A DNA stretch of 64,000 bases from Haliotis cracherodii (taxonomy: Eukaryota), in assembly GCF_022045235.1 (NCBI RefSeq), contig NW_027266343.1, forward strand, positions 44,640,001 to 44,704,000, in the 5' to 3' direction. A model generated the notes under the pieces. The model was not told where the DNA came from and searched no databases. It saw nothing but the letters and a program-made list of their open reading frames with translations. Positions 30,501 through 31,608 of this stretch are shown piece by piece (position 1 is the first letter of the stretch; every line of letters begins with the position of its first letter). The position numbers and the translations under genes were made by a program.

Positions 30501-31468
30501 CCTAAGCTGTGTACCAGAAAAGAAGTCAGAAAGTAAAAAGGTTCCATTAAATACAAAAAGGAAAGCAGCTAAATCGCCTTCTTCTCCGTGACCTTCACCA
30601 CTGACTAAGCTAGACCAATACAAGTTTGGTGATAGAACAAATGTTGAGAAAATGTAACCTCAGAACTTTGTAAGCATAATTATTGTATCTAGTAATATTG
30701 ACCGTTAACAAGCATGTATTATGAAATCTGAAATCTGAAATTAACGGAATATTATACTTATACTTAATTATCATTCTATGCCGTGATTTTTATTATTATT
30801 TTGTATTTTTTTATTGTTAACAGTTCTTGCATTTCATAAAACTAACGATAAACTCAAAATGATTTGAACAAAATAGGGCATCTTCATAAACAGGAACGTG
30901 CATTTTTAAGTGCATTTTTAAAGAAGCTAAAAGCATGATCGAAGTTAAAAGGTCAAATCGATATCCAACTACACAAAATGACAAACATGGAACAAATATG
31001 TTGAACCACTCAACTATGTAAACAAAAATGAAATTATATTACTTTTAACTGAAACAACAACGCAGTAATGGTCATGTAGTGTTGTTTTCAATATATCTGC
31101 CGAAGTGGCCATTTTGAAAATCAAACTGAAACTTCTAAAGGTGCCATCATTCGTTGCAAAAATGTGCAAAAGTTCTGACGTACAAAAAGAATTGCCGAGG
31201 TATGTACCTCATAAAATATGCACAATACTACCATGAAAGTTTCGTCAGGGGCTCTTGTTCTAAAAATAATATTCATAACAAGTGGAAGTATACAACGATA
31301 CACGCAAATATTAACCACATACATTGTTAATACACTAAAAATACATTTTACATATTCCAAAACAAACATTGATAGGTTGTCAGAAACCTAACCACTTGTC
31401 GATTGCAGTAAAGTGAACCTTCAACATCTTACCTAGAAGTAAGACGAGTTCTATGGATGAACAACTTC

Positions 31469-31474
31469 TTTATT
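31469..31474 (-). terminator. candidate poly(A) signal AATAAA donated by the Penelope repeat fragment
   Basis: First AATAAA seen downstream of the copy B stop, about 135 nt after it. Confidence 0.4.
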
Positions 31475-31482
31475 ACAATTAG

Positions 31483-31522
31483 TGCGACGTTTCGGTGTAG
31501 ATCCTAATACCTTTATCAAGCA
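31483..31522 (-). ncRNA. Penelope-type minimal hammerhead ribozyme motif in the presumed 3' UTR of copy B
   Basis: UGC-UUGAUAA-A-GGU..ACC-GAAAC-GUC^GCA; U3-A8 core variant; homologous to 43578-43615. Confidence 0.58.
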
Positions 31523-31608
31523 AGTTCTAACTTTGAAATTGAATTGAATGCGTCTGATCAAATTCACTCCATAAGAATGAGAATGCTTGCTACATGTATG
31601 TACCGTTT

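What the first reader, a model, noticed from the sequence alone, without database searches (positions are those of the whole stretch)
31445..31525. Sense-strand hammerhead-ribozyme motif plus poly(A) signal about 86 nt after the stop codon of copy B
Seen on the minus strand: UGC UUGAUAA A GGUAUUAGGAUCUACACC GAAAC GUC^GCA, then AAUAAA 11 nt past the putative cleavage site. It is homologous to the 3' end of the Penelope element at 43.3-43.7 kb. Established: Penelope-like elements carry minimal type I hammerheads that cleave mainly as dimers, U3-A8 can replace C3-G8, and 3'-UTR hammerheads regulate rodent Clec2 mRNAs. Inference: a solo repeat fragment may set the 3' end or the stability of this mRNA. 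Stem II is imperfect and helix I is only 3 bp, so it may be inactive.
Basis: partly seen in the sequence, partly recalled or inferred. Interest (0 to 1): 0.72.

Follow-up and report, generated by a model that had tools for sequence, protein, structure and literature searches.

The report
Damaged Penelope hammerhead scrap in UTR
A 90-letter scrap of a very common jumping gene sits in the untranslated tail of a PARP14-like gene, where it stands in place of 598 letters found in the sister gene copy; it carries a known kind of weak self-cutting RNA motif with one broken base pair, which likely does not cut or end the message.

Summary
The motif is real but ordinary. Window 31525-31436 (-) is a 90-nt piece of a young Penelope-like family (RT + GIY-YIG). 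The family form of the 36-nt core has 422 exact matches in the genome; this variant has 5. Both ends match the family's common short unit. It holds a minimal type I hammerhead (U3-A8 core) whose helices covary across four subfamilies. This copy has a G>A change that breaks a stem II pair (hairpin -5.2 to 0.0 kcal/mol, predicted), no stem III and no same-sense partner in the window. The AATAAA is part of the element (36 of 40 copies). Copy A lacks the element and has 598 other nt there, with two AATAAA. RNA-like contigs join spliced exons to the element's start. In two studies, other contigs run from inside the element past the expected poly(A) zone, one for over 1.1 kb, so read-through RNA exists. 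Contigs cannot show 3' ends, and none spans the cut site. Best reading: a passenger, at most a minor proximal poly(A) signal. The scan noted a similar UTR scrap in another genome (e1-9845657).

The parts
31436..31525 (-). 90-nt short unit of a young Penelope-like family (pLTR piece, no tail)
   Evidence: One difference from the family majority over 90 nt. Longer copies run up into RVT_1 and GIY-YIG frames. Ends match the family's common ends.
31483..31522 (-). Minimal type I hammerhead motif: 3-bp helix I, U3-A8 core, extra nt after A9, stem-loop II, palindromic ACGU in place of stem III, GUC site (cut 31486/31485 if active)
   Evidence: Sequence; descriptor scan; covariation across four subfamilies.
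31508..31508 (-). A in place of the family's G: A.C mismatch at the fourth pair of stem II
   Evidence: 5 exact matches of this variant against 422 of the G form; hairpin 0.0 versus -5.2 kcal/mol.
31469..31474 (-). AATAAA carried in by the element (+135 from the stop); use as a poly(A) signal untested
   Evidence: Present in 36 of 40 sampled family copies; ATTAAA in the 43.6-kb sister family.
31609..31895 (-). Coding part of the last exon of the PARP14-like gene, copy B (stop 31611-31609)
   Evidence: Pfam PARP E 6.7e-9, and KH_PARP14_2 (below curated cut-off) in an upstream exon; spliced joints 31895/32667 and 32841/33425 in 4 of 4 runs.
31526..31608 (-). Proximal 3' UTR shared with copy A (79 of 83 identical); copy A diverges at the element's start
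30300..31435 (-). Downstream flank shared with copy A and covered by RNA-like contigs; likely long 3' UTR, with AATAAA at 30815 and 30794 and ATTAAA at 30425
   Evidence: Contigs X9 record 20 and X14 record 7 bridge the element's 3' junction; hexamers.
43253..43668 (+). Sister-family Penelope 3' fragment (short GIY-YIG-like C-terminal frame, pLTR, hammerhead at 43574-43621), intronic and antisense to the gene, absent from copy A
   Evidence: The protein piece has no Pfam hit; the GIY-YIG label rests on recalled motifs.

Best explanation
This is a 90-nt short copy of a Penelope-like retroelement's terminal repeat that lies in the 3' UTR of a PARP14-like gene and likely rides along as a passenger, its hammerhead predicted to be inactive here. 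Shown: family membership, the family-typical ends, the stem II mismatch, absence from copy A with 598 other nt in its place, and RNA running from inside the element into the downstream flank. Inferred: reverse transcription began at the family's tail-less start site and ran to the family's usual 5' end point, probably the 5' end of an uncut element RNA. The cDNA went in after the gene duplicated, with loss of 598 nt of target DNA and no target duplication. The mRNA likely reads through to distal poly(A) signals about 800 nt or more after the stop. The element's AATAAA may serve as a minor proximal site.
For: (1) High-copy young family: 1432 first-look candidates, 40 scored, top hits 94-100% identical; 422 exact core matches, 0 for the reversed control. 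(2) Standard unit: of 40 copies picked by core pattern, 29 start within -6 to +8 nt of this copy's start, 20 end at element position 86-95, 13 carry a 30-40 nt tail, 7 end elsewhere. The tail/no-tail ends are the PLE signature of two RT start sites (PMC11167929). (3) Damaged fold: stem II pair probabilities at most 0.16 in the 90-mer and 0.0 in 361 nt of UTR context, against 0.87-0.99 and 0.71-0.80 for a family copy; double-hammerhead homodimer -4.9 kcal/mol against -7.2 for two monomers. (4) No same-sense partner: the only other window hit is antisense. (5) Known behaviour: a single min-HHR showed no detectable cleavage and dimers low activity (PMC4209133); the Anolis PLE hammerhead needed the element's protein, and no RNA-seq reads began or ended at its site (PMC11167929). 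(6) Read-through: X9 record 20 (31093-31471) and X14 record 7 (30300-31476, plus 1061 letters beyond the laid stretch) cross the expected poly(A) zone; most intron bins outside repeats have zero cover, and spliced joints appear in 4 of 4 runs.
Against: Contigs show presence only, not strand, ends or level; the runs are 'RNA?' by guess. No listed contig spans the cut site with unique flank: the gap 31477-31495 is expected from the repeat, so downstream RNA could include a 3' cleavage product or an antisense transcript. X9 and X11 show the A variant (none of their listed differences falls in the element), and the insertion seems shared with organism C, which allows for retention by selection; this was not testable on 90 nt. 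The element's hexamer replaces two lost ones, which is what a functional substitution would look like. Folding energies ignore tertiary contacts and proteins. The direction of the event (loss in B rather than gain in A) is inferred from X16 leaving copy B at the same junction; its 80 unmatched letters were not shown.
Confidence: 0.78

Rival explanations
1. The element's AATAAA is the main poly(A) signal of copy B: it replaced the ancestral signals lost with the 598-nt segment and shortened the 3' UTR to about 160 nt, while the hammerhead is dead.
For: Copy A's segment has AATAAA at +267 (two upstream UGUA) and +394; copy B's next hexamer after +135 is at +794. The 45 nt that start 15 nt past the hexamer are 58% U+G. 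Insertion seen in organisms A and C.
Against: Contigs in two studies cross the expected cleavage zone, one by more than 1.1 kb; organism D, which lacks the element at this junction, also has cover far downstream, so the long UTR looks ancestral. No upstream UGUA within 60 nt. The hexamer sits inside the element's own transcript in most family copies, where it must often be read through (inference).
Confidence: 0.14
2. The mRNA is cut at GUC in trans: an intact family RNA pairs through the ACGU palindrome and helix I and supplies the catalytic core, so the mRNA's broken stem II does not matter. The cut would remove the AATAAA and poly(A) tail, as in Clec2, and lower PARP mRNA when Penelope RNA is abundant.
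For: In a double hammerhead the core that cuts one strand is built from the other strand's stem II (geometry from PMC4209133 fig. 1 legend and text). The mRNA keeps ACGUC and GCA intact. About 1500-2500 contigs per run were laid on the stretch, with high summed depth on the element, so family sequence is widespread in the RNA-like runs. The cut site lies between stop and hexamer as in Clec2 (PMC6765202 section 12).
Against: Only 7 bp hold the mRNA: predicted -10.2 kcal/mol (one core) or -11.1 (both cores) against -12.5 for the separate monomers and -20.3 for an inactive cofold. Even intact PLE dimers cleave weakly. No cleavage evidence here.
Confidence: 0.04
3. The piece is an active cis ribozyme that cuts as a monomer or homodimer and sets mRNA stability.
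For: All core nucleotides are present and the U3-A8 pair covaries with C3-G8 in a fourth subfamily.
Against: No stem III, 3-bp helix I, stem II not predicted to form, no tandem partner; single min-HHR inactive in vitro.
Confidence: 0.02

Closest known systems
Minimal type I hammerheads (min-HHR) in pLTRs of metazoan Penelope-like elements (Cervera and De la Pena 2014, PMC4209133; parts 1-2 of 4 of the text read)
   Same: No stem III, palindromic 15.2-16.2, extra nucleotide between 9 and 10.1, G10.1-C11.1, U3-A8 variant (reported there for Schistosoma Cercyon), mostly solo copies from truncated elements.
   Different: Helix I is 3 bp (4-5 bp in the Schistosoma motifs, 2 bp in D. virilis) and helix II 5 bp (7-8 bp there); this copy breaks one helix II pair. 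The family here is very uniform, as in D. virilis.
Poseidon element PAc of Anolis (PMC11167929; passages and second half of the main text read)
   Same: Two classes of 3' end, with or without a 30-40 nt tail; copies retain the hammerhead uncut.
   Different: PAc's ORF starts at stem II; here the first ATG seen after the motif lies in the tail (sequence; not tested as a start). Clade assignment of this family was not tested by a tree.
Clec2 3' UTR hammerhead of rodents (seen only through the review PMC6765202, section 12)
   Same: Sense-strand GUC site between stop codon and poly(A) signal.
   Different: Clec2 is a discontinuous hammerhead with shown cleavage and lowered expression. This one is a young repeat piece with no stem III, a broken stem II and no evidence of cleavage.

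Membership tests
Penelope-like element (EN+) | Copies linked to an RT plus GIY-YIG ORF | tested here: met
   L060 frame: RVT_1 E 4.2e-8, above cut-off; L061 frame: GIY-YIG E 5.9e-4, 20.5 bits against a cut-off of 22.6; both lie just upstream of the same 90 nt.
Penelope-like element (EN+) | Optional 30-40 nt tail at the 3' end | tested here: met
   13 of 40 with tail, 20 of 40 ending at 86-95, 7 other. This copy has no tail.
Penelope-like element (EN+) | Tandem or inverted pLTR arrangement | tested here: inconclusive
   21 of the 29 short-start copies have inverted element sequence just upstream; no full pLTR-ORF-pLTR copy was found in 4 stretches fetched.
Penelope-like element (EN+) | RT phylogeny (Penelope/Poseidon versus Neptune or others) | not tested
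   No tree was built.
min-HHR of PLEs | Core C3/U3 U4 G5 A6 N7 G8/A8 A9, G12 A13 A14, A15.1-U16.1, H17 | tested here: met
   UUGAUAA and GAAACGUC; pair 3-8 is U-A in 4 rows and C-G in 1 of 5.
min-HHR of PLEs | Helices I and II supported by compensatory change | tested here: met
   5 of 10 pairs change on both sides in 5 rows; 0 of 500 shuffles reach this; slid controls at most 1. Five related rows only, and the structure was drawn by me from these sequences.
min-HHR of PLEs | Intact helix II in this copy | tested here: not met
   A.C at the fourth pair; predicted unfolded.
min-HHR of PLEs | Self-cleavage as a dimer | not testable with these tools
   Needs an in vitro assay.
Regulatory 3' UTR hammerhead (Clec2 type) | Complete three-helix fold in cis | tested here: not met
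   No stem III, no same-sense partner in the window.
Regulatory 3' UTR hammerhead (Clec2 type) | Conservation in paralogues or orthologues | tested here: inconclusive
   Absent from copy A and from the other last-exon loci fetched (1 of 20 loci L035-L054 has it, the window's own; 20 of 43 matches were fetched). Present in contigs of organisms A and C, not at the junction in the organism D contig.
Regulatory 3' UTR hammerhead (Clec2 type) | Cleavage lowers expression | not testable with these tools
   Needs a reporter assay.
Rfam hammerhead families | Covariance-model match | tested here: not met
   No hammerhead match at E<=1 over the window.

The most novel reading that the evidence does not exclude
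The insertion swapped the gene's ancestral 3'-end region for a Penelope unit that works as a retroelement sensor or a domesticated 3' end: its own stem II is crippled so it cannot cut alone, yet its GUC site stays open to cutting in trans by intact Penelope RNA or ribonucleoprotein, and its AATAAA gives a new proximal poly(A) site. A PARP14-like mRNA would then be shortened or destroyed according to Penelope activity.
Probability: 0.06. Interest if true: 0.7.

Novelty: new member of a known kind. Interest (0 to 1): 0.2.

Why it matters
As it most likely stands, little: with hundreds of near-identical copies in this genome, some land in UTRs by chance. Its modest use is as a natural experiment, since copy A (no insertion) and copy B (insertion plus 598-nt loss) allow a direct test of whether a Penelope minimal hammerhead or its AATAAA affects a host mRNA, which has no in vivo evidence in the papers read. 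If trans-cleavage or poly(A) capture were shown, it would be a young case of a retroelement ribozyme taken into host mRNA control.

Tried and rejected
Rfam scan: no hammerhead family. Target-site duplication at the 90-nt insertion: none seen; the junctions match a replacement of 598 nt by 90 nt. The 43.3-43.7 kb element as source or dimer partner: rejected, it is an 83% identical sister family with its own high-copy set and lies antisense. A longer helix I: pairs 4-7 fail in the window, family and sister copies. A full-length element with both pLTRs: not found in four 8-10 kb stretches. Run search: no listed holder is on record as RNA; that blank is no evidence. Contig depths were not used to rank upstream against downstream RNA. 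Read cover over copy A's own 3' region and the state of organism B were not obtained, so they stay open. Lunse et al. (PMC5785218) is not held and is known only from a citation in PMC6765202. Paper searches for a PLE poly(A) signal in pLTRs (1 paper) and for Penelope target-site deletions (1 paper, listing only) gave nothing direct; this is no proof that nothing is in print. No supplements were opened; the alignments in the supplement of PMC4209133 may hold closer relatives. Earlier scan notes near this place: none.

Full report
Observation. The motif is in the sequence as described: on the minus strand, UGC, UUGAUAA, an extra A, stem-loop II, GAAAC GUC, GCA, then AAUAAA 11 nt after the putative cut at 31486/31485. 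The stop codon is at 31611-31609. A relaxed minimal-hammerhead descriptor finds 2 hits in the window, against 0.01 per 64 kb in 100 Markov sequences. Rfam has no hammerhead match.

The gene. The last exon encodes the end of a PARP catalytic domain (Pfam E 6.7e-9), and an upstream exon has a weak KH_PARP14_2 match. The window holds a roughly 40-kb tandem duplication. Copy A's last exon lies outside the window at G000:C80:44632046-44632312, 93% identical in protein. The family is large: 43 last-exon matches in the genome.

What the piece is. A search with 31400-31620 gave 1432 first-look candidates, of which 40 were scored; all but the self hit match only the part around 31525-31436. The piece differs from the majority form at one of 90 positions. 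Longer copies run upstream into frames with RVT_1 (E 4.2e-8) and GIY-YIG (E 5.9e-4, below cut-off), so this is a Penelope-like pLTR.

It is the family's standard short unit. I took 40 of the first 100 listed places of the 422 exact core matches (contigs C1 and C2). Of these, 29 begin within -6 to +8 nt of this copy's first base; 20 end at element position 86-95, 13 carry the tail, 4 end earlier and 3 in between; 36 keep AATAAA. The two end classes fit the two RT start sites described for the Anolis element (PMC11167929). The clustered 5' ends suggest the RNA's 5' end rather than random truncation. That is inference, prompted by an earlier scan note (e1-9854223) and checked here only as an end distribution. 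The copies include sequence on both sides of GUC, so their templates were uncut.

The hammerhead. Four subfamilies in the fetched loci share the fold. Five of 10 pairs change on both sides, among them the 3-8 core pair (U-A versus C-G) and pairs in helices I and II; 0 of 500 shuffles reach that and slid controls reach at most 1 (5 rows, related sequences, structure drawn by me). So the family motif is a genuine min-HHR of the kind in PMC4209133. The window copy is damaged. The fourth pair of stem II is G-C in three rows and A-U in one, but A.C here. This variant has 5 exact matches against 422. Predicted stem II hairpin energy falls from -5.2 to 0.0 kcal/mol; pair probabilities are at most 0.16 alone and 0.0 in UTR context; the double-hammerhead homodimer is -4.9 against -7.2 for two monomers. 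The family homodimer is itself marginal (-17.3 against -17.8). No same-sense partner exists in the window. Published single min-HHRs did not cleave and dimers cleaved weakly; the Anolis motif needed the element's protein.

The insertion site. Copy A matches copy B over the first 83 nt after the stop (79 of 83) and again after the element (339 matches, 11 mismatches), but has 598 other nt in place of the 90. That segment has AATAAA at +267 and +394 and no match elsewhere in the window or the loci then held. No target duplication is seen. The simplest reading is insertion with target deletion after the duplication. The element is found in 1 of 20 last-exon loci fetched, the window's own. After the swap, the element's hexamer at +135 is the only AATAAA or ATTAAA before +794.

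RNA evidence. No run is on record as RNA. Four guessed-RNA contig sets (X9, X11 organism A, one study; X14 organism C; X16 organism D) all show the two GT-AG joints, with zero cover in most non-repeat intron bins. X11 record 6 and X14 record 10 run from spliced exons 30 and 29 letters into the element, one or two short of the tool's 31-letter rule. X9 record 20 (31093-31471) and X14 record 7 (30300-31476, with 1061 more letters beyond the stretch) bridge the 3' junction and cross the zone where the element's hexamer would direct poly(A) addition. So the element is in the transcribed region in two species labels, and RNA continues past the hexamer. The X16 spliced contig leaves copy B at 31526 with 80 unmatched letters, so it lacks the element there; it may be a copy A orthologue. 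Limits: contigs give no strand, ends or level; none listed spans the cut site with unique flank; 7648 pieces were not shown; cover of copy A's own segment was not obtained.

Mechanism. Most likely (0.78) the piece is a passenger, the ribozyme inactive and the mRNA mainly ending at distal signals. Next (0.14), its AATAAA is the main 3' end. Trans-cleavage by intact family RNA (0.04) is not excluded by the stem II defect, because the core that cuts the mRNA would come from the partner, but only 7 bp hold it and it is predicted less stable than the separate strands (-10.2 or -11.1 against -12.5 kcal/mol). Cis activity is 0.02. If cleavage did occur it would remove the hexamer and poly(A), as in Clec2, rather than make a 3' end.

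Verdict. A new member of a known kind, in a damaged state; interest 0.2. Papers seen: PMC4209133 (parts 1-2 of 4), PMC11167929 (passages, second half of main text), PMC6765202 (passages, section 12), PMC2377424 (passages), bioRxiv 10.64898/2026.07.22.740005 (abstract, not used for a claim).

Noticed in passing
window 43253-43668 (+): The sister-family Penelope fragment is absent from copy A and is flanked by an approximately 11-nt direct repeat that copy A has once, i.e. a likely target-site duplication. Copy B thus took two separate Penelope insertions after the duplication.
   Followed up: partly
L079-L118 (40 family copies on C1 and C2): 29 of 40 copies share one 5' end point within about 15 nt, and 21 of those 29 have inverted element sequence directly upstream; this points to the RNA 5' end and head-to-head insertion.
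   Followed up: partly
L012, L020, L028, L029 versus L013, L018, L021, L025: Two different upstream sequences converge a few nt before the hammerhead, one ending in a GTAA microsatellite and one in a T-rich tract plus AG; may be two element types sharing one pLTR end, or an intron boundary.
   Followed up: no
L007:1201-1248 (-), L033:928-975 (+): Two further hammerhead subfamilies, one with the canonical C3-G8 core and compensatory changes in helices I and II.
   Followed up: partly
L058 (G000:C56:58934386): Three family copies in a cluster, two in direct tandem about 76 nt apart and one inverted; a natural double-hammerhead candidate, one unit with the same stem II variant.
   Followed up: no
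window 33150-33300: Very high-copy short repeat in an intron, with very high summed depth in all four RNA-like runs; looks like a tRNA-derived SINE (label recalled).
   Followed up: no
window 38130-38760 (-): Short frames that resemble the C-terminal end of a LINE ORF2, in several pieces (resemblance recalled).
   Followed up: no
G000:C80: A large expansion of PARP14/15-like last exons: 24 of the 43 matches lie on contig C80.
   Followed up: no
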